Of a DNA stretch of 64,000 nucleotides, positions 48-39,879 are shown piece by piece. The notes under the pieces were generated by a model. It worked only from the letters and a program-made list of their open reading frames with translations. It had not been told where the DNA came from and ran no database searches. The position numbers and the translations under genes were made by a program. The DNA comes from Fibrobacteria bacterium (lineage in GTDB: Bacteria > Fibrobacterota > Chitinivibrionia > Chitinivibrionales > FEN-1185): the NCBI GenBank assembly GCA_037447435.1, contig JBBIGR010000005.1, positions 32,001-96,000 of the forward strand, written 5' to 3'. The first letter of the stretch is position 1. The number at the start of each line of letters is the position of its first letter.

Positions 48-84
48 GATTAATTTTCAATGGGTGATGCAATGATTTTTAATC
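48..84. promoter_or_regulatory. Tandem 14-bp near-palindromic boxes, putative upstream activator sequence for a sigma54 activator
   Basis: GATTAATTTTCAAT (48-61) and AATGATTTTTAATC (71-84), starts 23 bp apart; same architecture at 2315/2338 and 36233/36256; second box starts 78 bp upstream of the -24 GG. Confidence 0.6.
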
Positions 85-147
85 CGGATGATTTATTTTT
101 GATTGCAAAACCCTTTGTTTTCTTTATAATTTTACTTGCATAATGAA

Positions 148-163
148 TGGCATGGGTTTTGCA
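148..163 (+). promoter_or_regulatory. Sigma54 (RpoN) -24/-12 promoter
   Basis: TGGCAT-GGGTT-TTGCA matches TGGCAC-N5-TTGCW; GG(149-150) and GC(161-162) are 12 bp apart; ~100 bp upstream of the cytochrome gene. Confidence 0.8.
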
Positions 164-263
164 ATATTCATCAACTTGTGATATTTTTAGCATAATATTT
201 CCATTTTTTGTAATTTTGATCTAAAACCTATAAATTTTCATCTACACTATTCAGGAGGCTCTT

Positions 264-1445
264 GTGAAATTTGGAAGAAGAATTGGCTTGTATGTGTTGG
301 TATTCAGCTCTCTATTATTGACCACGACTGGATGCCTGCAGGGACCGACCGGTGCGGCTGGAAAAGATGGAAAAAGCGTTACCGACACTATTTATATCAA
401 AGACACACTGCTGACCAGAGACTCCAGTTTCATTCGCGATTCAATTATGACCATGACCACTTGCTCGCAATGCCATTTCAATAATCAATTGATTGTTTCA
501 AAGCAATATGAATGGGAAATGACCAAGCATGATACCGGAACGACATGGGTCGGCGAAGGTTCCAACGCAGCATGCATAGCCTGTCATAACGGTAATGCTT
601 TTATTTTCAAGCTTTCCTCGGCGGATTCGGCCAATGTAATGGCAAATCCGACAAATGCGAATTGCCGCACGTGCCATAAAATTCATACAAAATACGACAC
701 TACCGATTTCGCACTTGTCGGCGATGAACAACGCGTTGTATCAAAGAATAACAGTAATTTAACATTCCCCGATTACGGCGCAGGAAACCTGTGCGTGAAT
801 TGTCACCAACTCCGTACGAATTTCCTGGAAGACGTCAAGGCGGGAAAAGGAGTCGAGGGAATCAATCCGAACAATTCGATTACTTCGACTGCCGTTATGG
901 TTGGAACGGATTCGGTCAAATTTACGGCCACAGCAAGTCGTGCCAGCATGCATTATGGAGCGCAGGCCGAAATCGTTGCCGGTGCCGGCTTATATCTGCC
1001 GAACGGCGGAGCATCATTGAATCTTCCTTCTGCTCATAGAACAGCCATTGCCGACGGTTGCGTCGATTGCCATATGGGATCAACGAGGGTTCACACCTAT
1101 CAACCTCAGGCATCATCCTGCGCTTCGGCATCCTGCCATCCCAGCTCAATCGTCGGTCCTCGAGGCAAATTCGACATCGACAGCGTACAAACAAAAACAT
1201 TGGTTCTCGCAAAACAAGTCCGCGACTCCTTGGTTTCAAGAAAGATCGCCACCTGGGATACGACTAAAGTCTGGCCCGATCCTACCGGTCTTGGCTTCGG
1301 CGGCAAAGGGAAGACCTTCCCCGTCAGCGTCGTTGGCGCATATCTCAACTTGGGAGTGATTTTATGGGACGGAAGCAAGGGCGTTCATAATCCGAAATTT
1401 GTCAACGGCCTGCTTACCGGTTCCATTGCAGATTTAAAAAAATAA
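264..1445 (+). CDS. Multiheme c-type cytochrome lipoprotein (5 CxxCH + 1 CxxxxCH), probably surface-exposed
   Basis: GTG start with AGGAGG RBS; lipobox TTGC; collagen-like GPTGAAGKDG; CSQCH, CIACH, CRTCH, CVNCH, CVDCH, CASASCH; C-terminal DGSKGVHNP helix region. Confidence 0.88.
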   Translation: MKFGRRIGLYVLVFSSLLLTTTGCLQGPTGAAGKDGKSVTDTIYIKDTLLTRDSSFIRDSIMTMTTCSQCHFNNQLIVSKQYEWEMTKHDTGTTWVGEGSNAACIACHNGNAFIFKLSSADSANVMANPTNANCRTCHKIHTKYDTTDFALVGDEQRVVSKNNSNLTFPDYGAGNLCVNCHQLRTNFLEDVKAGKGVEGINPNNSITSTAVMVGTDSVKFTATASRASMHYGAQAEIVAGAGLYLPNGGASLNLPSAHRTAIADGCVDCHMGSTRVHTYQPQASSCASASCHPSSIVGPRGKFDIDSVQTKTLVLAKQVRDSLVSRKIATWDTTKVWPDPTGLGFGGKGKTFPVSVVGAYLNLGVILWDGSKGVHNPKFVNGLLTGSIADLKK

Positions 1446-1532: not shown

Positions 1533-2315
1533 ATGATCGGTATTTGTCGGATTTGTATTGTTTTCTTTCTTATGTTTTTTTGGGGATGCAAAGGCACACA
1601 AAAAACAAACGACCAAATTGGCAAAGTAAAAAGGGATACCGTCATTAAGGTTTGCCCAATGCAAGCTGGTTCGAATGCAATTTCAGGTGCCGGTTTTTCG
1701 GGCATTGTCAAAGAGATCATTAGTACCGCGGGGTACACGTATGCACTCATTGACACAGGTAAATCCAAAGTATGGGCGGTTGCCCCCGGTGCTGCCGTTA
1801 AGGCCGGAGATACTGTTACCGTTTCCGGCGTCATGCCGATGGAAAATTACAAATCTAAGACATTGAACCGCACCTTCGATTTCGTGTATTTCGCCGGATC
1901 TATTGCCCGAAATGGCGAACAGAGAAAAAGACCGGTTTCGCCTTCCCCGCATTCGACCAATTCGTCGACCATTGTTCCGATGGCAAAGTTGGATTTTTCA
2001 AAGATAAAGAAACCTTTACACGGGGTAACAATCGCGGATATGTATACGCAAAAAGACGCTTTGATAGGAAAAAAAGTCGTTTTTGCCGCCAGGGTTGTCA
2101 AAATTACATATGCTATTTTAGGAAAGAATTGGCTGCATGTGCAGGACGGAACCGGCGATGCGGGCTCAAATGATTTAACGGTAACGACCGTGGACAACAG
2201 TAGTCCCGGCAATACCGTGATCGTTGAGGGTACCCTTGCGAAAGATAAAAAAATCGGCAATGGCGATACGTATGGTGTAATAGTTGAAAATGCAAAACTC
2301 ACAGCAGAGAAATAG
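1533..2315 (+). CDS. NrfJ-like / tandem OB-fold lipoprotein
   Basis: ATG 1533 gives signal peptide with lipobox FWGC; GYTY..VWAVAP..M..Y.SKTLNRTFD.VYF domain plus GKNWLHVQDGTG OB-type domain; paralog at 35122-35931. Confidence 0.65.
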   Translation: MIGICRICIVFFLMFFWGCKGTQKTNDQIGKVKRDTVIKVCPMQAGSNAISGAGFSGIVKEIISTAGYTYALIDTGKSKVWAVAPGAAVKAGDTVTVSGVMPMENYKSKTLNRTFDFVYFAGSIARNGEQRKRPVSPSPHSTNSSTIVPMAKLDFSKIKKPLHGVTIADMYTQKDALIGKKVVFAARVVKITYAILGKNWLHVQDGTGDAGSNDLTVTTVDNSSPGNTVIVEGTLAKDKKIGNGDTYGVIVENAKLTAEK

Positions 2316-2351
2316 ATGGAAATTCATCTTTTGAAAGAATGATGATTCATC
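2315..2351. promoter_or_regulatory. Tandem 14-bp near-palindromic boxes (putative UAS)
   Basis: GATGGAAATTCATC (2315-2328) and AATGATGATTCATC (2338-2351), starts 23 bp apart; second box starts 77 bp upstream of the -24 GG at 2415. Confidence 0.65.
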
Positions 2352-2413: not shown

Positions 2414-2429
2414 TGGCATAGTTGTTGCA
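2414..2429 (+). promoter_or_regulatory. Sigma54 (RpoN) -24/-12 promoter
   Basis: TGGCAT-AGTTG-TTGCA; GG(2415-2416) and GC(2427-2428) are 12 bp apart; ~85 bp upstream of the porin ATG. Confidence 0.8.
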
Positions 2430-2514: not shown

Positions 2515-3735
2515 ATGATCAAGTTTATCCATTTTTCCGTTTTGGCGATTTTTATTTTTTTAATCGGAAACGTATACCCAACGTCATTGGATGTTGTTCT
2601 TGACAACTCGTTCAATGCCCGAAAGAACCTTATCGATTCGTCTGCGAAAACGTATACGTATGCTGAAGCGTTAAGCGTCAATCTGCTCAAATTGGGATCA
2701 ACGGATATTTCGTTTTATTCCGACCTTGGGCTTTCGAATACATTTCTCGACACTGCGCATAAACAATTTGACCTCCGTACTTTTTATATAGACGTTCCTG
2801 CATCCGCAAACTTCGATGCGAAAATAGGGCGTCAATTGTTTTGCGACTTGTCGTCAAGAAATGTTTGTCTTGATGGTGCAAAGTTCCAATACGATTTTCC
2901 CCAACAAGCGAAGCTGCATGGTTACGTCGGTGAACCGGTTCCGTCGGTTGATGGAAAATCCTTTGTCAGGCATGATCTGCACCTTCTTCAGGAAGGCTTC
3001 GGAGCCGATGTGGCGCTGGACCGCTCGACATGGATCGGTTTGCAAACCGCCTATCTCCCCGATACCGGCGGAGCAAAAGAAAGAATTCCGGTTTGCGGAT
3101 ATGTGGATTCCCGTCTGTCTAAAAATCTTAATTTGAAAATGAATGCAAATTACGACATGTCGGCAGAGTCAATGGAAGAATATGGCGTTTCGTTAAGCGG
3201 AAGAACATCGGCTCATTTGCAATGGAGAGTTTTTGCGCTCGGCGGAAACCGTGCAATAGATTCTATGAATGCCTATGAAAAGCTTGTGCTTGGAACCTAT
3301 AACGATGTCGGCGTTCAAATCGGCTATAACGACCGAAAGAATTATGTTCGGGGTTACTATTCGTTACGATCATTGGAAAACGGCAGCGATCATTTAGCCG
3401 GTATTGCAGCCTCTTTCTTCGGCGTATTTCTCGATCTCGAAACCGGTAGCGGAATTAGCGGCAATAGCGTCAAGACTTCAGCCGGTTATTGCCGGAATAT
3501 CTTAGAACTGCTTCAAGGCGGCGCTTCGGTTTCGTATTATGTATTCAGTCTGAGCCAAAATCCCTCGCAAGAGCATTCGATAACGACTCGTGCCTATGTG
3601 AACTGGTTAATCCCCACGCTCGGACTTTCGGTATCCCCTGAAATTCAATATTTGTCCAATCAATATTATCATAAAGACATTCGATTCCAAATCAATGCTC
3701 AGTATCAATATCTTTCTTTCTGGAAATCTAAATGA
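2515..3735 (+). CDS. Predicted outer-membrane beta-barrel (porin of a porin-cytochrome complex)
   Basis: Signal peptide from ATG 2515; alternating hydrophobic/aromatic strands (FDAKIGRQ, NYVRGYYSL, RFQINAQYQY); no heme motifs; 4-bp overlap with the decaheme gene. Confidence 0.7.
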   Translation: MIKFIHFSVLAIFIFLIGNVYPTSLDVVLDNSFNARKNLIDSSAKTYTYAEALSVNLLKLGSTDISFYSDLGLSNTFLDTAHKQFDLRTFYIDVPASANFDAKIGRQLFCDLSSRNVCLDGAKFQYDFPQQAKLHGYVGEPVPSVDGKSFVRHDLHLLQEGFGADVALDRSTWIGLQTAYLPDTGGAKERIPVCGYVDSRLSKNLNLKMNANYDMSAESMEEYGVSLSGRTSAHLQWRVFALGGNRAIDSMNAYEKLVLGTYNDVGVQIGYNDRKNYVRGYYSLRSLENGSDHLAGIAASFFGVFLDLETGSGISGNSVKTSAGYCRNILELLQGGASVSYYVFSLSQNPSQEHSITTRAYVNWLIPTLGLSVSPEIQYLSNQYYHKDIRFQINAQYQYLSFWKSK

Positions 3736-4460
3736 GACTAGAACTACTTGCCGTTTTCGCCTTTTTCACGCTCGCTCTCGGTAATTCGGGCCCTCCCGAC
3801 ACGCTTAAGTTTTCCCATAAGTCGCATATACAGGATATCGGCGCGCGGTGCATCGACTGTCATGTTACTTTATCGGATAAAGGCAAGCCGGCCAAAGCAC
3901 CAATTGTTTCGGAAGCGACCTGCAAAAAGTGTCATGACAATAAAACAGCGGACTTTGCATGTAACGTCTGCCATACGAATTCCGGTAATGTGACGCCAGG
4001 AAAGCCGACGTCTCTCGCAACAAGATTCCCGCATGCCAAGCATTTGGATTCTTCGGCGACTTGCACGCCCTGCCATCTGGGAGTTGAATCCGTTGCAATC
4101 GCAGACAAAAAGAATTTTCCGACCATGAAAACCTGTCAAACATGTCACGATGACCGTAAAGCACCTTCTTCGTGTGCTGTTTGTCATATTGATCTTGCGG
4201 CCATAAAACCGGTCACCCACGACGGCCAATGGCTTGAAGTCGGCGGACACGGGTATCAAGCTCGTTTCCCCGGAGCCGAATGTTCAAATTGCCATCAAAC
4301 ATCGTATTGCAATCAATGTCATCAAGGAAATACTCCGGTCAAGATTCATTCACCCGGCTATGAATTTGAGCATGGTCTCGATGTAAAGCAAAAAACTATG
4401 GATTGTACCGTTTGTCACGAAGCGTCAAGCATGTGCCTCCGTTGTCACGGGGGTAAATAA
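3732..4460 (+). CDS. Decaheme periplasmic c-type cytochrome (cytochrome c3/c7-like repeats)
   Basis: Signal peptide; 10 CxxCH in 242 aa (CIDCH, CKKCH, CNVCH, CTPCH, CQTCH, CAVCH, CSNCH, CNQCH, CTVCH, CLRCH); FSHKSH and FPHAKH distal-His motifs. Confidence 0.92.
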   Translation: MRLELLAVFAFFTLALGNSGPPDTLKFSHKSHIQDIGARCIDCHVTLSDKGKPAKAPIVSEATCKKCHDNKTADFACNVCHTNSGNVTPGKPTSLATRFPHAKHLDSSATCTPCHLGVESVAIADKKNFPTMKTCQTCHDDRKAPSSCAVCHIDLAAIKPVTHDGQWLEVGGHGYQARFPGAECSNCHQTSYCNQCHQGNTPVKIHSPGYEFEHGLDVKQKTMDCTVCHEASSMCLRCHGGK

Positions 4461-5353
4461 TGAGCTTTAAAAAAATCATTGTTTTTGTAGGACTCGTTGC
4501 CGCGTTTACAGGCTGTTCCAGCCTCAATGACAACATTGCGGTGGTATCTGCAAATAAATGCAGAGCTTGCCACGCACTTCCTCCCGCCGATCTTGTGCAT
4601 ACTGCCCATGTCGACACAATGCATTACTCGTGCGAAATTTGCCATAAAGGGGCTAGCGACAGCTTACAAACCGTTTCAAAAGGCCACAGTTTAGGAGTCG
4701 TGCAAGTTCATATATCTTCCGCATTCGACCCGAACGGTACGGCCACTTACGACCCCGTAAAAATGACCTGCAACATGATTTATTGCCATGGGAATTTCGT
4801 TGCGGGCAATTTGGGGACCGTCAAAACAACGGACATGGTTACCGGTTGCAGTTTTTGCCATGCGACTCCCCCGGTAGACCGTATGCATTCTGCCCATATA
4901 GATACCATGCATTATGCGTGCGTTTTGTGCCACATAGGCGCCGGAGAGACGCAATTATCGGCTGATGCCAAAAAGCTCCATGTCAATGGTATTGTCGACG
5001 TGCAAATCAAATCATCCTTTGACACAACCGGTAAAGCGTATTACGATAATAGCAAGAAAACATGTAACCTCGTCTATTGCCATGGTGCCGTTGTACCGAA
5101 AGATTCCGGAATTGTCAATATTCAGGACACCGTTACCGGTTGCGGGTTCTGTCATGACCTTAACAAATTAAGACTTGTCGACCATCACGACTCCTTAAAA
5201 TTGCCTATCAAAACTTTTTATAAGTGCGGCCTGTGTCACCCTGGATATGATCTGGCGACAAAAAAAACCAATGACGCCCTTCATATCAATGGCCACATCG
5301 ATGTCGCCGGTTGCGATCAATGCCATGAGTTACGAACATGGATAAGGAAATGA
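4460..5353 (+). CDS. Multiheme cytochrome lipoprotein with Geobacter-type CxxxxCH...CxxCH repeats (7 CxxCH + 2 CxxxxCH)
   Basis: Lipobox FTGC; CNMIYCHG and CNLVYCHG each followed by a CxxCH; HVNG/HING motifs; internal repeats of ~97 aa. Confidence 0.9.
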   Translation: MSFKKIIVFVGLVAAFTGCSSLNDNIAVVSANKCRACHALPPADLVHTAHVDTMHYSCEICHKGASDSLQTVSKGHSLGVVQVHISSAFDPNGTATYDPVKMTCNMIYCHGNFVAGNLGTVKTTDMVTGCSFCHATPPVDRMHSAHIDTMHYACVLCHIGAGETQLSADAKKLHVNGIVDVQIKSSFDTTGKAYYDNSKKTCNLVYCHGAVVPKDSGIVNIQDTVTGCGFCHDLNKLRLVDHHDSLKLPIKTFYKCGLCHPGYDLATKKTNDALHINGHIDVAGCDQCHELRTWIRK

Positions 5354-5354
5354 A

Positions 5355-8150
5355 GTGCCTGGAACAATCGAGGATTCAATTGTTTCTATGAAATCGATTG
5401 GATCCGGGCGCGAACGATTGAACCCTGTTCACAATGTTTTCCTTATTGTCACTTTTATTTTCTTAAGTGCAAACGCCCGGTTCGTCGATAGTCCCGCCAC
5501 ATGCCTTGAGTGCCATAAAGACAATACCCTTGTTTCCGAAAAAAAACCGAAAAAGTCATTGTTTGTCGATAAAAGCATTTTAGAAAATTCGATCCATGCG
5601 AAACTGAATTGCGTCGATTGTCATGTTGATGCCGATGTTGAAGACTTTCCCCATCCATCGCTTAAAGCCGCAAAATGCGACAAATGCCATTCGGTCGAAG
5701 TCAACGACTATTCCTTAAGCCGTCACCAAAATGCCGTAAACAAAAACAACCCCAAAGGTCCGGGCTGTTCCACCTGCCACGGGACGCACGATATTCTGTC
5801 CAATAAAGATTTAAATTCCCCCACGTATGTCCTAAACATCAATCAATCTTGTCTTAAATGTCATGGCGATAAAACAAAGCCGTCTTCGGAACAGGAAGAT
5901 TTTTCCGACCGAATTCATGGAAAAGGTGAAAAACAACACTTAAAAGTTACCGCCGTGTGCACGAATTGCCACAACAGCCATGATGTGCTCCGCCATACCG
6001 ATAGAAATTCGCCTACCAGCCGTGGGAAGCTCGTTTCGACCTGTTCCGTTTGCCATGCCCAAATAGAAGATTTACATAAAAAAATCGTATCGGTTGGAAA
6101 TACGATGTCCGGCTCGCCCAAGCTCCCCGAGTGCGGCGGTTGTCATGCGCTCCATGCCAAACGGAAAGTCTTTCCCGACGAAACATTCTCCGACGACTAT
6201 TGTCTGAATTGTCATAGTACGGCAAACAACAAAAGTCATATGATACAAGACAATTTGCGGGTAAACATGTCGGAAATAGACAGTTCCGCCCACAAAAACC
6301 TGCATTGCATCGAATGTCATTCGAACGTCGCTAAAAACCACGATCCCGTATGCGAAAAAAGCGGTAAAGTAAACTGTGCGACTTGTCATTCGAAAGTCGT
6401 TTCCGTCTATAATACCAGTATTCACGGCGTTCTGCACGCAAACGGTGAAAATGCTGCCCCGGTTTGTACCGATTGTCATGGGACGCATGCGACCAGGAGC
6501 AAAAACGATCCTGCATCTCCGGTCTCGCGATTGAATGAAATTATGCTATGCGGTCAATGTCACAAGGAAGGCGGAAAGGCGGAAGTGCGCAATCCGCAAA
6601 CAAACGGATTGTGGGAAAAATATACCCGCAGTATTCATGGGCAAGGTGCCATTAACAGCGGCCTGGTCGTCACCGCGGTCTGCACCGATTGTCATTCGAC
6701 GCATGGCGAACGCAAAGCAAGCGACACCCTATCAACCGTCAACAGAACCAAGATCGTTAAAACATGCGCTCGTTGTCATCAGGGAATTTATGAAAAATTT
6801 TCAGCCAGCGTTCATAGTCCGCTTATTACCAAAACAACGAAAACGCTTCCGGTTTGTTCCGATTGCCATCCGCTGCACAATATTTCCCGGGTTACCGACG
6901 ATGCATTTCGCCAACAAATTTTGGCGCAATGCGGAAAATGTCATATTGACGTATCTGAAACTTATTTTGAAACGTATCATGGTAAAAAATCCCGGCTCGG
7001 GTCTAATCATGCGGCGAAATGTTCGGATTGTCATGGATCGCATACCATATTTGCCCTTTCCGACCAACGATCGACACTTTCCAAAGCGAACATTGTCGCG
7101 ACGTGTAAGAAATGCCATCCTGGTTCAAACAAAGGGTTCACCGGGTATTTGCCGCATGCCACGTATCAGGATAAACACAAGTATCCGGTTCTTTTTTATT
7201 CCTTTTGGAGCATGAGCGCATTGCTTTTTGGGACATTCGGCTTTTTCGGGCTTCACACCATTTTATGGATTCCACGGTCCATTCGGGAACGTTTAAAACG
7301 TCGTCCGAACAGTATCGAATTGAATGGAAAATGGGTTAAACGATTCCCCGCATATTACCGGGTTTTGCATGTTTTTGTCATAATTTCATTTTTAGGGTTG
7401 GCATTGACCGGTATGGCATTGAAATTTTCCGATCAGAATTGGGCAATCGCGATTTCCCGATTCCTGGGAGGTATATATGTAAACGGGTTTATTCACCGCC
7501 TTTGTGCGATTATCACCTTCGGTTATTTCAGCGCGCATCTTATTGAACTTTTTGTTCGAATGAAACGGGAAAAACAAAAATTCGTCGACTTTGTTTTTCT
7601 CAAAGACAGCATGATCCCGACCTGGCGCGATGCGAAAGAATTTTGGCAAAGTATTTTGTGGTTTACAGGTTTTGGGCCCCGACCGGCGTACGGCAGGTGG
7701 ACGTATTGGGAAAAATTCGACTATTTCGCCGTATTTTGGGGCGTTATGATTATAGGTTCGACAGGTCTTATGTTATGGTTCCCGGAATTTTTTACCCGGT
7801 TCTTACCCGGATGGTTTATTAACATTGCCACTATCATTCATAGTGACGAAGCGCTTCTTGCCGTCGGCTTTATTTTCACCATACATTTTTTCAATACGCA
7901 TTTCAGACCCGATAAATTTCCAATGGATATGGTGATTTTTACCGGTCGAGTTCCCTTCGAGGTTTTTTCTGAAGAACGGCCTCGAGAACTTGAAGAATTA
8001 AAATCACAAAACCGACTTGATAGCATGTTTATGGAGCCCCCCTCAAAAAAATTAATTCTCATTGCGCGTGTTTTTGGAATATCGGCTTTAGTCACAGGAT
8101 TACTGCTTGCCGGTTTGATTATTTGGACTATGGTGTCGAAACTTTTTTAA
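5355..8150 (+). CDS. CbcL-like inner-membrane quinol oxidoreductase: 19-heme c domain fused to a cytochrome b (FdnI/HydC-type) membrane domain
   Basis: 19 CxxCH motifs, then membrane helices with [54 protein letters not shown]; start may be ATG 5388. Confidence 0.9.
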
Positions 8151-8321
8151 ATCATGGATAAAACGTCTTGCGATGGAATCGGGTATAAAACATATTGATC
8201 AAATCCGGGCCAAGGTAAAATATTGATACCTATATTCACGTATTCAGTTTGCTCATTATGATAAAAATTGCTGCAAACTGCATACATACATTAATTTCTT
8301 CATTTTTGCAGGAGGATGTGT

Positions 8322-13406: not shown

Positions 13407-13411
13407 GCGCC

Positions 13412-16526: not shown

Positions 16527-16549
16527 TTTGTTTATAAAGGAGAGTACTC

Positions 16550-17530: not shown

Positions 17531-17535
17531 TACCC

Positions 17536-28836: not shown

Positions 28837-28841
28837 CGCAA

Positions 28842-29312: not shown

Positions 29313-29325
29313 AACAGGAACACCA

Positions 29326-29835: not shown

Positions 29836-29841
29836 ACCGCT

Positions 29842-30141
29842 ATGGAATCAAGTGCCTATATCGGCTTGGCAATTACAATCTTTTTTATCGGCGTTTTCGG
29901 CATGCTTGTTCGCAAGAGTGCTTTTTTATTCCTGATGTCCATCGAGCTCATGCTTAATTCCGCAAATCTAGCGTGGGTAACCTTTGCCAAAGTCCATGGA
30001 AATCTTGATGGGCACGTATATGCCTTTTTTATTATGGCCCTTGCTGCAGCCGAAGCATGCGTAGGTCTGGCTATCATAGTCCTATTTTACCGGAAACGAC
30101 GCTCGGTGATTCTCGACAATGCCAAGGAAATGAGTAAATAA
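29842..30141 (+). CDS. nuoK: NADH-quinone oxidoreductase subunit K
   Basis: LMSIELMLNSANL, ALAAAEACVGLAI. Confidence 0.95.
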   Translation: MESSAYIGLAITIFFIGVFGMLVRKSAFLFLMSIELMLNSANLAWVTFAKVHGNLDGHVYAFFIMALAAAEACVGLAIIVLFYRKRRSVILDNAKEMSK

Positions 30142-32084: not shown

Positions 32085-33635
32085 ATGCAAATGAACGTAC
32101 CCATGCTTTCTATTCTCACCTTTTTGCCGCTCGGGACGTTCGTGCTCCTGCTTCTGACGCCGCAAGGATCGTCGAAACTCCATCGAAATCTTTCCTTATG
32201 CGTTTCCCTTTTTGTTTTTTTGATTTCATGCGTGATCCTTAAAGATTTTATTCCGACAAGCATCCCCCAATTCGCCGAACGTTTCCCGCTCATCGACAAA
32301 TGGGGAATTTCATATTCGGTTTCCGTCGATGGCATCAGCATATTTCTCGTGATGCTTGTAACGTTTCTTACCCCTATTGTTGTTCTTTGTTCTTATAAGT
32401 ACATTACCAAAAACACACGCGAATACTACGGATTGATCCTGTTGCTCGAATTCGGTATGATCGGGACGCTTGTTGCGGCAGATGCGATGTTGTTTTACGT
32501 GTTCTGGGAAATAATGCTAGTGCCCATGTTTTTTATCATCGGAATGTGGGGTGGAGAACGACGGGTTTACGCGACAATAAAATTCGTATTGTTTACCCTC
32601 GTCGGGTCCCTGCTGTTGTTAATCGGATTGATTTATACTGCATGGAAAGCGTCAAAAGGCGGACATATTTCATTTGCGATCAGCGACATGCACAACGTGG
32701 TGCTGTCCACAAAAGAACAGCTCTGGCTTTTCGGTGCATTCTCCCTCGCGTTCGCAATAAAAGTGCCGATGTTTCCTTTACATACCTGGTTGCCCGACGC
32801 TCACACGGAAGCCCCGACCGGCGGAAGTGTCATTTTGGCCGGCGTTCTGCTGAAAATGGGCGTATACGGGTTTCTGCGTTTTGTTTTTCCGATCTTGCCA
32901 ACCGCGTCCCATCTATTTGCGCCGGTTATGATTATTCTCTCGATCATCGGCATCATTTACGGCGCACTTGTCGCTTTTGTGCAAACCGACATAAAAAAGC
33001 TTGTTGCATATTCATCAGTGAGTCATTTGGGTTACGTCATGCTGGGCCTTTTCGTTTTTTCACTCCAAGGCTTTCAGGGCGGCATGTATCAGATGATCAA
33101 TCATGGACTTTCGACAGGAGCGCTTTTCCTCATTGTAGGAATGTTGTATGAACGTCGCCACACCCGACTCATGAGTGAATTCGGCGGATTGGCAAAAACA
33201 GTCCCTCTACTTGCGATTGTATTCATGGTTTCAATGCTTTCTTCGGTAGGTCTGCCCGGGTTAAACGGATTTATCGGCGAATTCCTCATACTCCTGGCAA
33301 CGTTTGCGGCATCCCCCCTGTATGCCGCTTTTGCCGCCAGCGGTGTAATTCTCGGCGCTGTTTATTTATTCCATTTGTATCAAAAAGTAATGTTCGGCCC
33401 GATAACAAAACAGGAAAATGAAAAATTACCCGACCTTTCTTTTCGCGAAGCAATCATCATGATTCCGATTCTTTTGCTTATGGTTATAATGGGGCTATTC
33501 CCGAACCCGATTCTTAAAAGGACAGAACCGTCGATGCAGAAAATCATTCAACAAGTAAATTTATCGACTATGCAGACTCGCGATTTTTCTGCGGCGCTAC
33601 AACAAGATCAAGGGAGTATCAATCATGACCGCTGA
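32085..33635 (+). CDS. nuoM: NADH-quinone oxidoreductase subunit M
   Basis: FYVFWE, AIKVPMFPLHTWLPDAHTEAPTGGSVILAGVLLKMG, AYSSVSHLG. Confidence 0.97.
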   Translation: MQMNVPMLSILTFLPLGTFVLLLLTPQGSSKLHRNLSLCVSLFVFLISCVILKDFIPTSIPQFAERFPLIDKWGISYSVSVDGISIFLVMLVTFLTPIVVLCSYKYITKNTREYYGLILLLEFGMIGTLVAADAMLFYVFWEIMLVPMFFIIGMWGGERRVYATIKFVLFTLVGSLLLLIGLIYTAWKASKGGHISFAISDMHNVVLSTKEQLWLFGAFSLAFAIKVPMFPLHTWLPDAHTEAPTGGSVILAGVLLKMGVYGFLRFVFPILPTASHLFAPVMIILSIIGIIYGALVAFVQTDIKKLVAYSSVSHLGYVMLGLFVFSLQGFQGGMYQMINHGLSTGALFLIVGMLYERRHTRLMSEFGGLAKTVPLLAIVFMVSMLSSVGLPGLNGFIGEFLILLATFAASPLYAAFAASGVILGAVYLFHLYQKVMFGPITKQENEKLPDLSFREAIIMIPILLLMVIMGLFPNPILKRTEPSMQKIIQQVNLSTMQTRDFSAALQQDQGSINHDR

Positions 33636-35109
33636 CGTAGCCTTGTTGTTGCCGGTCATTATACCGGCATTAGGTGCAATAATCATTTTCCTTCTTTCGG
33701 CCTTTTTCCCCTCTCGCGCTTTTGCTTTATTTATAACCGTTGCAGCCGTTATTCTCGGAGCTGTTTTCACTCATGGTTGGAATAATTCATATACGCTTTT
33801 TTCCGGGATGTTGCATATAGATTCGTTTGCACAAATCAGTGCATTATTCTGTTTCGCGATTTCCGGTATAGCCGCAATTGCGGCACCCTCATATTTCAAA
33901 AGAATGAATCTGGATTTTGGAGAAGAATATTATGCTTTGCTTTTAGCGGCAACCGCAGGGATGGTAATCATGGTTGCGGCAAACGATCTCATGGTTCTTT
34001 TCATAAATCTCGAGCTTGTCTCAATCACGACCTATATCATGTGCGGTATGAACCGAAACAGCCAAAAATCAACCGAATCCGCCTTGAAATATTTTGTCAC
34101 CGGCGCAGCATCGGCGGCGTTTATGCTTTTCGGCATTGCACTGGTATTCGGTAGTACCGGCTCAACCGATCTGACCGTTATTGCCGCGCAAATCCATTCG
34201 GGCAATTCCGGATTCTCGACACCTTTGTTTCCATTAGCTTTACTTCTCATTGCCATCGGTTTTTTCTTCAAGCTGGGCCTTTTTCCGTTTCATGCGTGGC
34301 TCCCGGATGTTTACGAAGGCGCACCTACCCCTACCACAGGATTCATGGCAGCTGCAATACGGACCGTAGTCGGTATTGTGCTCATTCGACTCATAGTCGA
34401 TCTTTTTGAGCCCGGCATGCCGAGTTTAACTGCAATAGTATGGTGGATCAGCGTCATTTCTATGACAATCGGTAATTTAGGGGCCATTCGTCAAAATAAC
34501 GTCAAGCGAATGCTCGGATATTCGAGCATTGCCCATGCAGGATATTTGCTGATCGGGTTTGTCGCGCTTTCCTCTACACGGCTTTTAGGGGCCGAGGCGA
34601 TTCTTTATTATTTAATTTCCTATTCGTTAATGTCGCTCGGCATTTTTATTTTCGTTGGACAGGTAGAACAAAAAGGCGAATCAGACCTCCAATTCGACAG
34701 CTATCGCGGTCTTGGTTTGCGCCAACCATTTGTCGGCTTGCTCGCATCGATTTTACTTTTATCCTTAACAGGAATTCCGCCGTTCGCAGGGTTCTGGGGA
34801 AAATTCTCCCTATTTTCCGCTGCATTGCATGACGGCTATACGGGTCTTGCCGTCATAGGAGCTCTCAATAGCGTCTTGTCGGCCTATTATTATTTTAGGC
34901 TTATGGTAAATATGTATATGAAAACGCCGGACGCCCGCGAAACGAACTCTTCGTACGTACGGGCGCCCCTTGTCACGACCGGTATGGCTATTTGCAGTGT
35001 TCTCATGATTTGGCTGGGAATTGGTCCGGTTTCTATCGGTAATTTCCTGCCTTCTGTAAACTCCCTCTGGGTATCGATCGGTAACGGCGTTTCCGTTCTC
35101 CTTCATTGA
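33625..35109 (+). CDS. nuoN: NADH-quinone oxidoreductase subunit N
   Basis: ESALKYFVTG, FKLGLFPFHAWLPDVYEGAPTP, KRMLGYSSIAHAGY, GIPPFAGFWGK. Confidence 0.96.
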   Translation: MTADVALLLPVIIPALGAIIIFLLSAFFPSRAFALFITVAAVILGAVFTHGWNNSYTLFSGMLHIDSFAQISALFCFAISGIAAIAAPSYFKRMNLDFGEEYYALLLAATAGMVIMVAANDLMVLFINLELVSITTYIMCGMNRNSQKSTESALKYFVTGAASAAFMLFGIALVFGSTGSTDLTVIAAQIHSGNSGFSTPLFPLALLLIAIGFFFKLGLFPFHAWLPDVYEGAPTPTTGFMAAAIRTVVGIVLIRLIVDLFEPGMPSLTAIVWWISVISMTIGNLGAIRQNNVKRMLGYSSIAHAGYLLIGFVALSSTRLLGAEAILYYLISYSLMSLGIFIFVGQVEQKGESDLQFDSYRGLGLRQPFVGLLASILLLSLTGIPPFAGFWGKFSLFSAALHDGYTGLAVIGALNSVLSAYYYFRLMVNMYMKTPDARETNSSYVRAPLVTTGMAICSVLMIWLGIGPVSIGNFLPSVNSLWVSIGNGVSVLLH

Positions 35110-35121: not shown

Positions 35122-35931
35122 TTATTTTTGCACCGTAACCTTTGCATCCTCGATCATTAACGCAAACTTATATCCCGCTCCGATGTCCTTGTCTTTGGAA
35201 AGCGTACCTTCGGCAACTACGATTTGACCGACAATAGGATTGTCTTTGGTTGTTACAATAATATCGTTGGCACCTTCGTTACCCGTTCCATCGCGAAGAT
35301 GCAACCAGTTTTTATTCATGATATTGTCGTTCGCATGGACTATAACGCCGCATAAAACGACCTTTTTTCCCTTTAATGTTTCCTTTTGCGCAAAAAGCTC
35401 GGCTACGGAATTGCCATTCGGCACTTTCTTTATTTTTGTGAAATCCGCTTTGACTCCTGGATCCATTTGGGGCGTATGTCCCATTGCACCTTGCAACGAA
35501 ATCTGTTCCATCGGTGACGCCGCGGGTTTCATCGCGCACGCCTTATAGGAAGAATTTGCGTCGCCTTTTTTCACGATTCCGCCCGCGAAATAAACCAAGT
35601 CGAATGTTCTGTTCAGTGTTTTGCTATGATAATCCTTCATGGGCATTACATCCATGACATCAATTGTATCGCCGATTGTCAATTTGGATTGCGGAGAAGC
35701 AACCCACACGTTGGCATCGGAGGTTTTTACGAACACATACGTATATCCTGCCGTATTAATCGTATCGAGAACCACTCCAGTTAATGACACCTGCTTTGAA
35801 GCCATACCGGTGTTTGCCGGGCATACGGACGAGCTTTTCCCGTCTCCCATTTTGTTCGACGCGGGTCTATTGGAATTACAGGAATTAATTAAGAAAGCAC
35901 ATCCTAAAAAAAGCACGCAAAACATCTTCAT
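35122..35931 (-). CDS. NrfJ-like / tandem OB-fold lipoprotein (paralog of 1533-2315)
   Basis: AGGAG RBS before ATG 35931; lipobox INSC; TAGYTY..SKTLNRTFDLVYFAG and KNWLHLRDGTG motifs shared with the 1533 protein. Confidence 0.7.
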   Translation of the reverse strand: MKMFCVLFLGCAFLINSCNSNRPASNKMGDGKSSSVCPANTGMASKQVSLTGVVLDTINTAGYTYVFVKTSDANVWVASPQSKLTIGDTIDVMDVMPMKDYHSKTLNRTFDLVYFAGGIVKKGDANSSYKACAMKPAASPMEQISLQGAMGHTPQMDPGVKADFTKIKKVPNGNSVAELFAQKETLKGKKVVLCGVIVHANDNIMNKNWLHLRDGTGNEGANDIIVTTKDNPIVGQIVVAEGTLSKDKDIGAGYKFALMIEDAKVTVQK

Positions 35932-36232: not shown

Positions 36233-36269
36233 GATTGAAATTCATCCTTGGGGCAGATGAAAACCGGTC
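36233..36269. promoter_or_regulatory. Third copy of the tandem 14-bp boxes
   Basis: GATTGAAATTCATC (36233-36246; one mismatch to the 2315 box) and GATGAAAACCGGTC (36256-36269), starts 23 bp apart; between the divergent OB-fold gene and hemE. Confidence 0.55.
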
Positions 36270-36470: not shown

Positions 36471-37502
36471 ATGTCAAGATCAGACAGGTTTTTAAACGCA
36501 TGCCGTCGCCAAGAGGTTGATTGCACTCCCGTGTGGATGATGCGTCAGGCCGGAAGATATCTTCCCGAATATCGGGAAATCCGGAAAAATCACGGTTTTT
36601 TGGAAATGTGCAAAACTCCCGAGCTTGCGGCAGAGGTTACGATTCAACCGATCCGCCGGTTCGATATCGACGCAGCAATAATTTTTGCGGATATCCTGCT
36701 TCCTCTTGAGCCCATGGGAATCGATTTGGAATTTGCAAAAGGAGAAGGACCCATTATCCATAATCCCATCCGGTCGAGAAGCGATGTCACAAAATTGAAG
36801 CCGATCGACACCAAGACGTCTATACGCTACCTTTTAGATGCGATCAAAATTGTTCAGAACGAATTACAAGGCAAAGTGCCGCTTATCGGCTTTTCGGGAG
36901 CTCCATTTACTCTTGCAAGTTATATTATCGAAGCTGGCGGTTCAAAAGAATATGTTAACACAAAGACCATGATGTTTGGCGATCCCGCAACCTGGCATAA
37001 GCTCATGGAACATCTTACCGGCGTTATCATCGATTACTTAAATGCTCAAATAGATACCGGCGTTAATGCCGTGCAACTTTTCGATAGTTGGGTTGGAACG
37101 CTGAGCACCGCCGATTACCGGGAATTCGTGTTGCCGCATCAAAAAAACGTAATAGCAGGAATCAAGAAAACCGTACCGCTCATACATTTCGCCTTTGGCG
37201 CCTCGCATCTGATTGAACTCGTCTCTGAAGCTGGAGGAGATGTGATCGGTCTTGACTGGCGATGCGATATTGCAACGGCATGGAAACGGGTCGGATACGA
37301 CAAGGCGGTACAAGGAAATCTCGACCCCATCTCTTTGTTTACGCAAGAGGATACAATCAAGCGACGCGTTAAGGACATCCTAGCATTAGCGGAAAACAGA
37401 AACGGTCATATCATGAACCTCGGCCATGGGATATTAAAGGAAACCCCCATAGAGAATGCCGAGGCATTTATCAACGCCGTCCACGAATTCAGCAAACGGT
37501 AA
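36471..37502 (+). CDS. hemE: Uroporphyrinogen decarboxylase (UroD)
   Basis: PVWMMRQAGRYLPEY, DAAIIFADIL, LIGFSGAPFTLASY, VQGNLDP, NLGHGI. Confidence 0.97.
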   Translation: MSRSDRFLNACRRQEVDCTPVWMMRQAGRYLPEYREIRKNHGFLEMCKTPELAAEVTIQPIRRFDIDAAIIFADILLPLEPMGIDLEFAKGEGPIIHNPIRSRSDVTKLKPIDTKTSIRYLLDAIKIVQNELQGKVPLIGFSGAPFTLASYIIEAGGSKEYVNTKTMMFGDPATWHKLMEHLTGVIIDYLNAQIDTGVNAVQLFDSWVGTLSTADYREFVLPHQKNVIAGIKKTVPLIHFAFGASHLIELVSEAGGDVIGLDWRCDIATAWKRVGYDKAVQGNLDPISLFTQEDTIKRRVKDILALAENRNGHIMNLGHGILKETPIENAEAFINAVHEFSKR

Positions 37503-37521
37503 TTTTAAAAAGGCATTTTTC

Positions 37522-38427
37522 ATGACCCAACATATTGGCGTAATCCTCGTCGCACTCGGCGGCCCGCATTCACTCGATGATGTCGGGCCTTTTATGACTG
37601 CTTTTATGGGAAAACCGGCGCCGTTGCCTGTCGTAGCAGCCGTGCAAGAACGCTATAAATTGATAGGCGGTAAATCGCCTTTGGTAGAAATTGTTAAATG
37701 CCAGGCACACGCGTTGGAAAACAAACTCGGACCGCATTTCCGGGTCTACGCCGGTTTCAGACATTCCAACCCGACCATTGCAGAGGCATATGAATCGGCC
37801 TTAAAAAACGCAGCCGATACGGTTGTCGCAATGTCTCTTTCTCCCTATGAAACAATCATCACAACCGGATCATATAAAAAAGCATTTGACGAATTGCACA
37901 TCCCAGAAAACAGATTCACGTTTATTCCCAGTTTCCATGACAACCCGTCCTTTTTGCAGGCCTGGCAAGATTCCATCGATCAAGTCACTTCGGAATTCGA
38001 AAGATCCAATTCCGTATTCATTTTTACGAGCCATAGTCTTCCCATGCACCTCATCGATAGCGGAGACCCATATAAAAATCAAGTTGAAGAAACGGTTGCT
38101 GCAATATCCTCAAAATTATCTCTGAAACATTGGGTAGTCGGCTGGCAAAGCAAGGGAGCCCGATCCACAGAACCGTGGTTGGAACCTTCCGTTGAATCAA
38201 TTTTAGAATCCATCGCAAAAAGCGGAACAAAACCAAAACAGGTTGTCGAGATCCCAATCGGATTTACCTGCGATCATTTGGAAACCCTTTACGACATCGA
38301 TATTGTTCATAAGGGAATTGCCGATTCATTGGGACTTTCATTCAAACGCGTTGCTTCTTTAAACACAAATCCGGCTTTCATCAATGCACTTGCCGACATT
38401 ATTAATAAGCAAACATCTTCGATTTGA
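37522..38427 (+). CDS. hemH: Ferrochelatase (probably coproporphyrin ferrochelatase CpfC)
   Basis: ATG 37522; LGGP, RYKLIGGKSPL, SHSLP, WLEP, GFTCDHLETLYDID. Confidence 0.93.
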   Translation: MTQHIGVILVALGGPHSLDDVGPFMTAFMGKPAPLPVVAAVQERYKLIGGKSPLVEIVKCQAHALENKLGPHFRVYAGFRHSNPTIAEAYESALKNAADTVVAMSLSPYETIITTGSYKKAFDELHIPENRFTFIPSFHDNPSFLQAWQDSIDQVTSEFERSNSVFIFTSHSLPMHLIDSGDPYKNQVEETVAAISSKLSLKHWVVGWQSKGARSTEPWLEPSVESILESIAKSGTKPKQVVEIPIGFTCDHLETLYDIDIVHKGIADSLGLSFKRVASLNTNPAFINALADIINKQTSSI

Positions 38428-38448
38428 TGAACTTTTAGGAGACCTTTC

Positions 38449-39879
38449 ATGAAAAAAATTGTTATAATCGGTGGAGGAATTTCAGGCCTTGCAGCAGCGG
38501 TTCGTGCAAAAGCAAAATCGCTAGAAAACAAACAAGATGTTGAAATTCAGCTTTTGGAAAAAAGCGATTATGTAGGCGGAAAGATTGTCACCGAGCATGT
38601 CGAAGATTTTCTTATTGAAGGTGGTCCGGATTGTTTCTTACCCGAGAAATATTGGACTGTTGACCTTGCCCGTTTTTTAAAGCTCGAAAACGAAATGATT
38701 CCAACGAACGATAAATTCAAGGGCACCTTCATTTACTCGCGCAAAAAACTTCATCCGCTGCCCGAAGGAGTCATGCTTATGGTGCCAACGATGATTATGC
38801 CTCTTGCAAAGGCGTCACTCATTTCATGGCCCGGGAAAATCCGGATGGGGATGGAATTATTCATTCCGAAACGGAAGGATCCTGCCGATGAAAACCTTGC
38901 TAGTTTCGTGACCCGCCGCCTCGGCAAAGAATGCCTGGACAAAATTGCCGAACCCCTTGTTGCCGGAATACATACTTCTAACCCAGATAATATGAGTGTG
39001 CTTGCAACGTTTCCCCGTTTTGTCGAACTTGAACAAAATTACGGTAGTATGATACGGGGAATGGTCGCAGCTATAAAAAATCGTCCGCTTCCGAGCCTGA
39101 GTCCCAGTAAAAAAGCAGCCAAAACCAAAATGACATATTTCATGAGTTTCCGAAATGGAATGGCTGAATTGCCTGACGCATGCGAACAATTCATCGGCAA
39201 TAGCATCATTCGAAAAAAAGCGTCAGTGGTTTCGATAGACAAATCAGGCAAAGGCTATACTGTCCATTTGTCGAACGGTGATTCGATATATGCCGACAGC
39301 GTTATTTCCGCAGCCCCCTCATTCGACACTGCACCGTTGCTTAAAGACATAGACAAGGAATTGACAATTCAGCTTAAAAAAATAGAGTGGTCGTCGTCTG
39401 CAACCATTTCATTGGCATTTAGCCGGAAAGACATTAAAGCGCCGCTAAAAGGGTTTGGCTTCATTGTCCCCAAACTTGAAAAACGACGAGTCAATGCCGC
39501 TACGTATAGTTCGATCAAATTTTCGAACCGCGCACCCGACGACATGCTTTTGTTACGGGTGTTTCTCGGCGGAGGAAATAGAGAGGATTTAGTTTCATCC
39601 CTGGATGACGACGGAATGCGTAAAATGGCGCTGGAAGAAATCGATACCATTGCAAAGATTAAGGCGGAGCCTAAACTTACGAGAATTTTCCGTTGGTTCG
39701 ACGGCATGCCAAAATATACCGTCGGACATCTTGACCGAATGGCGGAAATCGACAATTCGACACGTAAACATGCGGGGCTTTTCCTAACCGGCAGTTCCTA
39801 TAGAGGTATCGGCATAGGAGATTGCATCAACCGGGCCCAAATTGCCGCAGATAATGCTTTGCTATATTTAAATTCATGA
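38449..39879 (+). CDS. hemY: HemY-type (copro/proto)porphyrinogen oxidase (CgoX/PgoX)
   Basis: IIGGGISGLAAA, IEGGPDCF, AEPLVAGIH, GFGFIVP, MPKYTVGH, GIGIGDCI. Confidence 0.93.
   Translation: MKKIVIIGGGISGLAAAVRAKAKSLENKQDVEIQLLEKSDYVGGKIVTEHVEDFLIEGGPDCFLPEKYWTVDLARFLKLENEMIPTNDKFKGTFIYSRKKLHPLPEGVMLMVPTMIMPLAKASLISWPGKIRMGMELFIPKRKDPADENLASFVTRRLGKECLDKIAEPLVAGIHTSNPDNMSVLATFPRFVELEQNYGSMIRGMVAAIKNRPLPSLSPSKKAAKTKMTYFMSFRNGMAELPDACEQFIGNSIIRKKASVVSIDKSGKGYTVHLSNGDSIYADSVISAAPSFDTAPLLKDIDKELTIQLKKIEWSSSATISLAFSRKDIKAPLKGFGFIVPKLEKRRVNAATYSSIKFSNRAPDDMLLLRVFLGGGNREDLVSSLDDDGMRKMALEEIDTIAKIKAEPKLTRIFRWFDGMPKYTVGHLDRMAEIDNSTRKHAGLFLTGSSYRGIGIGDCINRAQIAADNALLYLNS

What the first reader, a model, noticed from the sequence alone, without database searches (positions are those of the whole stretch)
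48..39879. Self-contained extracellular-respiration cluster: headless complex I to 19-heme CbcL to porin-cytochrome conduit, with its own heme supply, maturation and regulator
Seen: five multiheme cytochromes, a beta-barrel, ResB/CcsA, ten heme-pathway genes, a sigma54 three-component system and nuoABCDHIJKLMN lie together in ~40 kb, almost all on one strand, and share a repeated regulatory box. Known: Geobacter uses CbcL/ImcH, periplasmic cytochromes and porin-cytochrome complexes for extracellular electron transfer (EET), with those genes scattered. Inference: this locus encodes a full chain from a cytoplasmic donor via quinone to the cell surface as one co-regulated unit. Flanking genes (NPCBM protein with FlgD/T9SS-like tail, secreted esterase) hint at a polysaccharide-degrading FCB/Fibrobacterota host, a group I do not know to be described as performing EET.
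Basis: partly seen in the sequence, partly recalled or inferred. Interest (0 to 1): 0.92.

Follow-up and report, generated by a model that had tools for sequence, protein, structure and literature searches.

The report
Fibrobacterota porin-cytochrome respiratory island
A cellulose/chitin-degrader relative (order Chitinivibrionales, phylum Fibrobacterota) carries a large gene block that looks like a complete wire for passing respiratory electrons through both membranes to the outside, and related wires occur in many free-living members of this phylum, which is usually described as fermentative.

Summary
The host is Chitinivibrionales. The orphan gene folds as a plug-less 22-strand outer-membrane barrel. 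A complex model puts the decaheme's last four hemes inside it: score 0.64, best control 0.00. The block continues 32 kb upstream with acetate activation, most TCA genes, Nqr and two more quinol-coupled cytochromes. The barrel family is in 32 of 296 Fibrobacterota genomes, with an 8-11-heme gene beside it at 26 of 30 loci. In 7 genomes it directly follows a periplasmic [NiFe] hydrogenase. Co-regulation as one unit is only partly supported: the box sits at three sigma54 promoters, not before nuo. The block is not self-contained, since menaquinone genes lie on another contig and no malate dehydrogenase was found. Verdict: a Pcc-type electron conduit with its own barrel family, in a phylum where ten literature searches found none described. 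Function and direction are untested.

The parts
48..84 (.). Enhancer-like box 1: two 14-bp imperfect palindromes 23 bp apart, 100 nt before a sigma54 site
   Evidence: the orthologous G006 site scores 29.9 held-out
148..162 (+). sigma54 -24/-12 site p1
   Evidence: conserved in G006
264..1445 (+). 5(+1)-heme lipoprotein cytochrome c, probably outer-membrane; followed by a strong terminator at 1467-1496
   Evidence: 66% to G006; fold not resolved
1533..2315 (+). Lipoprotein of no assigned family; paralog at 35122-35931 (39%); travels with the conduit in G006 and G242
2315..2351 (.). Enhancer-like box 2, 99 nt before sigma54 site p2
   Evidence: G006 site scores 22.7 held-out
2414..2428 (+). sigma54 -24/-12 site p2
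2515..3735 (+). Plug-less 22-strand outer-membrane beta-barrel (conduit sheath); no Pfam or NCBIfam family
3732..4460 (+). Periplasmic decaheme cytochrome c with c7-like repeats; residues 156-239 (hemes 7-10) modelled inside the barrel
4460..5353 (+). 7(+2 CX4CH)-heme lipoprotein cytochrome, candidate surface partner
   Evidence: (TIGR01904)
5355..8150 (+). CbcL/MtrH-type 19-heme cytochrome c fused to a cytochrome b membrane domain
8316..8870 (+). c554-like tetraheme periplasmic cytochrome
8993..12130 (+). System II cytochrome c maturation: resB, ccsB, ccsA-like; the genome's only PF01578 genes
12120..19924 (+). hemA, cysG-N/sirC, hemC, cobA-hemD, hemB, ahbD, hemL
20075..23758 (+). PhnD-like binding protein, histidine kinase and sigma54-dependent regulator; kinase and regulator also beside barrel clusters of G242, G238, G274
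24397..24410 (.). FNR-type palindrome before ygbA-nuoA; 17 such perfect sites in the genome, so weak
24980..35109 (+). 11-subunit complex I (nuoA,B,CD,H,I,J,K,L,M,N) without an NADH module
35122..35931 (-). Paralog of the 1533-2315 lipoprotein
36233..36269 (.). Box 3 (score 19.5), between the divergent lipoprotein gene and hemE; no sigma54 consensus found near it
36471..39879 (+). hemE, hemH, hemY; with ahbD they form a coproporphyrin-type route to heme b

Best explanation
The window is the downstream 40 kb of a respiratory island of about 72 kb (G000:C5:1-71900) in a Chitinivibrionales genome. It most likely lets a polysaccharide degrader respire to extracellular acceptors such as Fe(III), humics or a partner cell. 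Proposed flow: NADH enters menaquinone through Nqr. Succinate enters through SdhCAB. Ferredoxin from 2-oxoacid oxidoreductase enters through the headless complex I (inferred). Menaquinol is oxidised by the 19-heme CbcL-type protein, the 11-heme NapC/NrfH-type protein or the NrfD/6-heme complex. Electrons pass through periplasmic cytochromes to the decaheme, whose last four hemes sit in the 22-strand barrel, and on to lipoprotein cytochromes at the surface. A sigma54 activator, probably the one at 22415-23758, binds a tandem palindrome about 100 nt upstream of the conduit and polyprenyl-synthase/nqr promoters. Shown: gene content, barrel fold, synteny, motif conservation. Modelled: barrel-decaheme contact. 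Inferred: surface exposure, electron direction, acceptor, donor of complex I, identity of the activator.
For: Barrel, decaheme, lipoprotein cytochrome and CbcL-type genes overlap or abut (gaps -4, -1, +1 nt). The barrel has 22 strands, pLDDT 87.9; its best structural matches are 22-strand TonB-type barrels (Z 19.4, rmsd 4.4, 336 aligned) and MtrB scores Z 16.1. Complex score 0.64 against best control 0.00; the mark was reached by 116 of 157 solved and 2 of 215 mismatched pairs; runs agree in at least 72% of contacts; partner pLDDT at least 70; contacts fall on 22 of 22 strands. An 8-11-heme gene lies beside the barrel at 26 of 30 Fibrobacterota loci. The same gene order is kept in G006 at 53-71% identity. 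Upstream on the same contig: acsA, sdhCAB, gltA, sucCD, korABG, nqrA-F, polyprenyl synthase, 11-heme and 6-heme quinol-linked cytochromes. Elsewhere: menF/D/B/A, aconitase, IDH, fumarase. Pcc as described in PMC4245776 (passages): 18-22-strand porin, 5-14-heme periplasmic cytochrome, outer-membrane cytochrome often with CX3-4CH motifs.
Against: No expression, localisation or physiological data. No malate dehydrogenase was found: the one PF00056 hit scores as L-lactate dehydrogenase, and PF02615 and PF06039 gave 0, so a closed oxidative TCA cycle is not shown. The genome has bd oxidases at two loci, a CoxA-type oxidase and NrfAH, which could be the real sinks for nuo, nqr and heme. CbcL/MtrH/MtoC homologs occur in both Fe reducers and Fe oxidisers (PMC6295460, passages). 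The cytochrome b domain scores 26.9 bits, under the Pfam cut-off of 30.1. The complex score may partly reflect likeness to the solved MtrAB. No box or sigma54 site was found before nuo.
Confidence: 0.62

Rival explanations
1. The conduit runs inward: electrons from Fe(II), reduced humics or a partner cell reduce menaquinone or feed the O2 and nitrite reductases.
For: The genome has CoxA-type and bd oxidases and NrfAH. MtoC-type homologs of CbcL occur in Fe(II) oxidisers (PMC6295460, passages).
Against: The island pairs the conduit with acetate activation and oxidative TCA genes, which make electrons. A lipoprotein cytochrome follows the decaheme as in reducing Pcc systems (PMC4245776, PMC6344600, passages).
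Confidence: 0.13
2. The conduit is an overflow valve for a fermenter. It dumps surplus electrons on humics or minerals to shift fermentation, without complete acetate oxidation or growth on acetate.
For: No MDH or MQO found. Two HydABC-type [FeFe] hydrogenases, Rnf and Ech-type complexes are present. Described relatives are obligate fermenters (PMC4704652, PMC4814513, passages).
Against: acsA, gltA, korABG, sucCD and sdhCAB sit in the island. A malic-enzyme-like gene next to fumarase could close the cycle (read by eye, not scored). Two quinone-reducing complexes suggest energy conservation (inference).
Confidence: 0.17
3. The region is a neighbourhood of independent respiratory operons. nuo, nqr and heme genes serve microaerobic or nitrite respiration, and the porin-cytochrome genes serve something else, such as a soluble acceptor or detoxification.
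For: Separate regulatory signals: sigma54 boxes at the conduit, an FNR-like palindrome before nuo. The maturation and late heme genes are single-copy and must serve all cytochromes in the genome. G006 has extra modules inserted between the 11-heme and 5-heme genes.
Against: The box also precedes the polyprenyl-synthase/nqr genes, scoring 19.3, the best non-training value of 107 sigma54-consensus sites. The regulator genes recur beside barrel clusters in three other families.
Confidence: 0.06
4. Assembly or binning artefact: a Desulfobacterota-like fragment joined to a Fibrobacterota contig.
For: G+C drops from 0.459 in the island to 0.417 in the right flank. The 19-heme gene was not found in 5 of 5 congeners.
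Against: The island's G+C and tetranucleotide profile match the genome (0.456; ranks 18, 29 and 43 of 208 chunks). The same contig carries housekeeping genes syntenic in four congeners. G006 has the orthologous cluster, and G002 has a decayed copy at 64-70% identity.
Confidence: 0.02

Closest known systems
Geobacter Pcc porin-cytochrome complexes (OmbB-OmaB-OmcB; PMC4245776, passages)
   Same: Adjacent genes in the order porin, periplasmic multiheme cytochrome, lipoprotein cytochrome; 22 strands lies in the stated 18-22 range, 10 hemes in the 5-14 range; CX4CH motifs in the outer cytochrome.
   Different: The barrel has no Pfam, NCBIfam or clear PDB sequence match; homology to OmbB was not tested directly. 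The CbcL-type gene is in the same operon. Maturation, heme, complex I, Nqr and TCA genes are alongside. The host phylum is not among those named in the passages read.
Shewanella MtrCAB (6R2Q)
   Same: A decaheme inside an outer-membrane barrel; structural Z 16.1, rmsd 4.4, 314 aligned.
   Different: 22 strands against 26 (PMC12133095, passage) and 406 aa against 649 residues in the solved chain. The decaheme is c7/GSU1996-like (best PDB hit 3OV0, E 1e-32; MtrA only E 1e-4).
CbcL/MtrH/MtoC family (PMC6295460, passages)
   Same: N-terminal multiheme c domain plus a C-terminal HydC/FdnI-like cytochrome b domain; 19 hemes and 931 aa lie within the stated 3-23 hemes and 416-1034 aa.
   Different: 19 hemes against 9 in G. 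sulfurreducens CbcL. The nearest named relatives are from Zixibacteria, Eisenbacteria, KSB1, Verrucomicrobiae and Myxococcota at 55-63% over the membrane domain.
Lineage-specific porin-cytochrome clusters EET1-4 of peat Acidobacteriota and Verrucomicrobiota (bioRxiv 10.64898/2026.05.27.727921, passages)
   Same: Conserved, sequence-divergent porin-multiheme clusters in uncultured polysaccharide degraders.
   Different: Other phyla; 'Fibrobacter' occurs 0 times in the main text. Sequences were not compared and the supplements were closed.
11-subunit complex I (Fpo-like or ferredoxin-linked NDH; recalled)
   Same: nuoA-D and H-N without E, F, G.
   Different: The donor is unknown here. Congener G003 has a different operon with E/F/G-like genes between nuoCD and nuoH, at 32-53% identity to the window's subunits.

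Membership tests
Pcc-type porin-cytochrome conduit | Outer-membrane beta-barrel of about 18-22 strands | tested here: met
   22-strand model, pLDDT 87.9; outer-membrane barrel matches
Pcc-type porin-cytochrome conduit | Adjacent periplasmic multiheme cytochrome of 5-14 hemes | tested here: met
   10 CxxCH, signal peptide read by eye, 4-nt overlap with the barrel gene; 26 of 30 loci
Pcc-type porin-cytochrome conduit | Outer-membrane lipoprotein cytochrome, often with CX3-4CH | tested here: met
   Lipobox Cys read by eye, 7 CxxCH + 2 CX4CH, TIGR01904 52.5 bits against cut-off 27; surface exposure not tested
Pcc-type porin-cytochrome conduit | Cytochrome inserted in the barrel | tested here: met
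   Model only: 0.64 against control 0.00, contacts on 22 of 22 strands; likeness to MtrAB may contribute
Pcc (OmbB/OmaB/OmcB homologs, strict sense) | Sequence homology to OmbB/OmaB/OmcB | not tested
   No Geobacter sequence was fetched; no library family hit the barrel
Pcc-type porin-cytochrome conduit | [quoted passage not shown] | not testable with these tools
   Needs proteoliposome or physiology assays
MtrCAB/MtoAB | MtrB-family 26-28-strand barrel and MtrA/DmsE-family decaheme | tested here: not met
   22 strands; no MtrB family hit; the decaheme has no TIGR03508 hit at E 0.001
CbcL/MtrH/MtoC | N-terminal 3-23 CxxCH motifs | tested here: met
   19 motifs at residues 50-584
CbcL/MtrH/MtoC | C-terminal HydC/FdnI-like domain with 4-6 helices and His ligands | tested here: met
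   5 hydrophobic segments at threshold 1.5; His672, 714, 829 and 844 are candidates; PF01292 E 4.8e-6, below cut-off; TIGR01583 E 5e-5
CbcL/MtrH/MtoC | Direct homology to G. sulfurreducens CbcL | not tested
   Sequence not fetched
11-subunit (headless) complex I | nuoA-D, H-N present; nuoEFG absent from operon and genome | tested here: met
   genome 99.6% complete; G006 also joins nuoD to nuoH
   Found at window 148 and 2414 and at C5:30224(-); not found before nuo or the regulator genes; box without sigma54 site before hemE

The most novel reading that the evidence does not exclude
Free-living Fibrobacterota are an overlooked electroactive phylum with their own 22-strand porin-decaheme-lipoprotein module in two wirings. 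In G000 and G006 it is quinol-fed through CbcL. In at least 7 Chitinivibrionales genomes of three families a paralogous module is the tail of a protease-small subunit-large subunit operon of a Tat-exported group 1 [NiFe] hydrogenase, with no membrane cytochrome b in the two operons read in full; three of these genomes gave no menD. That would be a periplasmic short circuit between H2 and the cell surface, so that cellulose or chitin fermenters burn their own H2 on minerals, humics or partner cells, or make H2 from extracellular electrons, without the quinone pool.
Probability: 0.4. Interest if true: 0.85.

Novelty: new variant of a known kind. Interest (0 to 1): 0.68.

Why it matters
Fibrobacterota are primary degraders of cellulose and chitin. 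The cultured Chitinivibrionia and Chitinispirillum are described as unable to respire (PMC4704652, PMC4814513, passages). If these conduits work, polymer breakdown in anoxic habitats can couple directly to Fe(III), humics or partner cells, and so draw H2 and acetate away from methanogens. The barrel has no Pfam or NCBIfam model, so family-based screens would miss it; alignment A2 is a usable marker. The hydrogenase-linked form gives a small, testable operon for quinone-free H2-to-surface electron transfer. The surprise is tempered because new porin-cytochrome clusters are now reported in many phyla.

Tried and rejected
Generic repeat finder: did not list the box among its top families; the box was found by reading intergenic DNA and by pattern search. 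Sigma70 promoter and terminator scan of 1-20000: counts no higher than shuffles. Fold of the 5-heme lipoprotein from a 4-row alignment: pLDDT 37, not searched or used. PDB sequence searches: nothing for the 5-heme protein, one marginal hit for the 7-heme, one LptD hit at E 4e-5 for the barrel profile. No solved porin-cytochrome barrel stood out in the fold searches, which does not exclude one. Futalosine pathway: 0 of 21 genomes; the classical men genes were then found. Recent transfer of the island into G000 was considered because the 19-heme gene is missing in 5 of 5 congeners; disfavoured by composition, G006 synteny and the G002 remnant. The barrel tree (56 rows, FastTree, midpoint root) groups most Chitinivibrionales barrels (support 0.99) apart from those of families f14, f15, f17, f21; G078 and the C24 paralog fall outside, deep nodes are weak and many rows have no taxonomy, so vertical descent is not shown. 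The listing of cluster members gave no organism names. No RNA holder was listed. Alignment A6 had mis-specified rows and was not used. Earlier scan notes on this genome or sequence: none shown.


Full report
Observation. The window is G000:C5:32001-96000 of a 5.05-Mb genome, 99.6% complete. The four PF01512 hits are two RnfC and two genes next to [FeFe]-hydrogenase large subunits. The heme genes give a coproporphyrin-type route (HemE, HemY, HemH, AhbD; pathway order from established knowledge). AhbC and AhbAB of a congener find no orthologs here. The maturation genes and hemC, cobA-hemD, hemE, hemH and hemY are single-copy, so this block supplies every c-type cytochrome of the cell.

Host. A contig of G006, which shares G000's GTDB family, is identical to a record titled Chitinivibrionales bacterium. 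The genes right of the island are syntenic in four congeners, mostly at 46-70% identity. G000 has 8 GH5 matches. In passages of PMC4704652 and PMC4814513, Chitinivibrionia and Chitinispirillum lack respiratory chains and have incomplete TCA cycles; only termite Fibromonadaceae were credited with complexes I and II and a bd oxidase.

The barrel and its partner. The gene at 2515-3735 has no Pfam or NCBIfam hit. With a 39-row alignment it folds as a signal helix plus 22 strands and no plug (pLDDT 87.9). Foldseek returns outer-membrane porins. VIA-align ranks 22-strand TonB-type barrels first (Z 19.4, rmsd 4.4, 336 aligned) and MtrB at Z 16.1. The barrel-decaheme model scores 0.64 against a best control of 0.00. 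That mark was reached by 116 of 157 solved complexes and 2 of 215 mismatched pairs; the counts hold only roughly because my own alignments were used. The runs agree in at least 72% of contacts and the partner's pLDDT is at least 70. Decaheme residues 156-239, holding hemes 7-10, touch 22 of 22 strands. This supports binding but does not show it, and likeness to solved MtrAB may contribute. The decaheme is c7/GSU1996-like rather than MtrA-like. The layout fits the Pcc description in PMC4245776 (passages); homology to OmbB itself was not tested.

The inner-membrane end. The 931-aa protein has 19 motifs in residues 50-584, then five hydrophobic segments with candidate heme b ligands and a weak PF01292 match, below cut-off. 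This is within the range given for CbcL/MtrH/MtoC homologs in PMC6295460 (passages). The family is large: 7224 of 8000 scored candidates pass E 1e-60, and named neighbours are from Zixibacteria, Eisenbacteria, KSB1, Verrucomicrobiae and Myxococcota.

The island is larger than the finding. C5:1-32000 holds an HmcB/C-like complex with a 6-heme NrfD fusion, acsA, sdhCAB, citrate synthase, a homocitrate-synthase-type gene, sucCD, korABG, two two-component systems, nqrA-F, a polyprenyl synthase and an 11-heme NapC/NrfH-type cytochrome. The contig starts inside the block, so it may extend further. Aconitase, IDH and two fumarases lie elsewhere. No malate dehydrogenase was found: one PF00056 hit scores as LDH, and PF02615 and PF06039 gave none. 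menF, D, B and A are on C40. The genome also has bd oxidases at two loci, a CoxA-type oxidase, NrfAH and a second porin-cytochrome cluster on C24. It is a respiratory generalist, which keeps the direction and acceptor of the conduit open.

Regulation. The box is two imperfect 14-bp palindromes 23 bp apart, 99-100 nt before sigma54 sites at 148 and 2414, as expected for an NtrC-family enhancer (established knowledge). A matrix trained on these two sites scores the orthologous G006 promoters 29.9 and 22.7, the only values above 7 among 9 sigma54 sites in 21 loci of other genomes. Among 107 sigma54-consensus sites of G000 (median -0.2, 95th percentile 11.8) the best non-training site is C5:30224(-), before the polyprenyl synthase and nqr genes, at 19.3.

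Distribution. The barrel profile matches 32 of 296 Fibrobacterota genomes (G000 included), in 18 of 70 genera and 8 of 21 families, and 0 of 151 in the largest family, which I take to be the gut Fibrobacteraceae (inference; the family is unnamed). Loci came back for 30 of the 32 genomes. An ORF with at least two heme motifs lies within 1.5 kb at 28 of 30, and an 8-11-heme ORF at 26 of 30; one of the two misses (G006) is a contig break. The CbcL membrane domain matches 9 of 296. Clusters in G242, G238, G244 and G274 repeat varying subsets of the parts: CbcL-type, 5-6-heme lipoprotein, c554-like, maturation genes, and the same kinase and regulator in three of the four. G006 keeps the order 5-heme, lipoprotein, barrel, decaheme, lipoprotein cytochrome, CbcL at 53-71% identity, and a headless nuo at 53-77%. 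Congener G002 keeps c554, the 7-heme gene, maturation and hem genes, but in that locus its decaheme is cut at the 5' end and barrel and CbcL are missing. This points to loss in the genus rather than recent gain; the island's composition matches the genome.

A second wiring. All 5 congeners carry a paralogous barrel followed by a 10-11-heme and a lipoprotein cytochrome (about 27% identity in the four where it is whole). In G002 and G005, read in full, the order is maturation protease, small subunit with a twin-arginine-like leader, large subunit, barrel, cytochromes, with no cytochrome b gene. The large subunit passes NF033181 (626 bits, cut-off 600) and matches periplasmic Desulfovibrio-type enzymes best. 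A close clade of it (57-79% identity to the query) occurs in 8 of 81 genomes of the order. All 8 have the barrel; adjacency is seen in 7, and the eighth is split over two contigs. G000 and G006 lack this hydrogenase. menD passed its cut-off in G000 only, of 5 genomes tested (G006 is 79% complete). Four of five congeners have a cytochrome c synthase, but hemA was found in only 2 of 5, so heme supply there is unexplained.

Literature. Ten searches and passage searches in 14 papers found no description of porin-cytochrome or CbcL systems in Fibrobacterota. I saw term passages, not whole texts, of PMC4704652, PMC4814513, PMC6295460 (plus three supplementary files, 0 hits), PMC4245776, PMC12133095, PMC11492766, PMC6344600, PMC11495043, PMC10448109, PMC13608581, PMC10734482, bioRxiv 10.1101/2022.03.26.485925 and 10.64898/2026.05.27.727921; PMC7399161 returned no passage. 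PMC10448109 only speculates that Fibrobacteres enriched on magnetite take part in direct electron transfer. Subscription papers are not covered, and unseen supplements, above all the peat preprint's tables, may list Fibrobacterota genomes with multiheme cytochromes.

Verdict. It works like a Geobacter-type quinol-to-surface chain (confidence about 0.6 for outward respiratory use; about 0.9 that it is a trans-outer-membrane conduit of some direction). It is not Mtr, and strict Pcc membership is untested. It is a new variant of a known kind, in a phylum where I found none described, and the hydrogenase-linked form is the most novel lead.

Noticed in passing
G002:C9:146388-152361 (L039/L040); G005:C52:284545-290762 (L037/L038); also G003, G004, G024, G029, G044: Operon of a periplasmic group 1 [NiFe] hydrogenase directly followed by barrel, 10-11-heme and lipoprotein cytochrome genes, with no cytochrome b subunit in the two read in full; a candidate H2-to-surface conduit.
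   Followed up: partly
G000:C5:1-32000 (L003, L004), upstream of the window: HmcB/C-like complex with a 6-heme NrfD fusion, acsA, sdhCAB, gltA, sucCD, korABG, nqrA-F, polyprenyl synthase and an 11-heme NapC/NrfH-type cytochrome: the first half of the island.
   Followed up: yes
G000:C24:1-5820 (L005): Second porin-cytochrome cluster: 5-heme, divergent barrel, 10-heme, 9-heme lipoprotein with Ig domain, 7-heme and a membrane protein at the contig end; partly present in G006:C141.
   Followed up: partly
G002:C1:65740-67900 (L019): Decayed copy of the island: decaheme gene truncated at its 5' end, CbcL gene missing between the 7-heme and c554 genes; this genome has ahbC/ahbAB-like genes in place of the hemE-H-Y block at that locus.
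   Followed up: partly
window 1533-2315 and 35122-35931: Paralogous lipoproteins of no assigned family (nearest Atlas clusters carry GW domain PF13457 on 16-37% of members) that travel with the conduit in G006 and G242; possible assembly or accessory factor.
   Followed up: partly
G242:C305 (L096, L097); G244:C12:335790-338399 (L100): Two tandem barrel-cytochrome modules, a 22-heme protein and two tandem 19-heme CbcL-type genes in G242; a 25-heme protein in G244.
   Followed up: no
G004, G005 (94-96% complete): They keep the cytochrome conduit and a fused cytochrome c synthase but gave no hemA match, which suggests heme scavenging or a missed gene.
   Followed up: no
window 23884-24815: A ferritin-like small gene (read by eye, no family hit) and a ygbA-family gene precede nuoA behind an FNR-type palindrome; ygbA also lies in the G242 cluster.
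   Followed up: partly
G000:C60:1-4408, C10:25236-27548, C4:200147-202519, C12:97574-99531: CoxA-type oxidase, two bd oxidases (the cydA on C4 is in two frames) and NrfAH; no bd match in 7 of 7 family relatives.
   Followed up: partly
window 48227-49852 and 51524-54013: A probable further outer-membrane protein and a patatin-type gene with a C-terminal barrel-like region, both conserved in four congeners; not part of the island.
   Followed up: no
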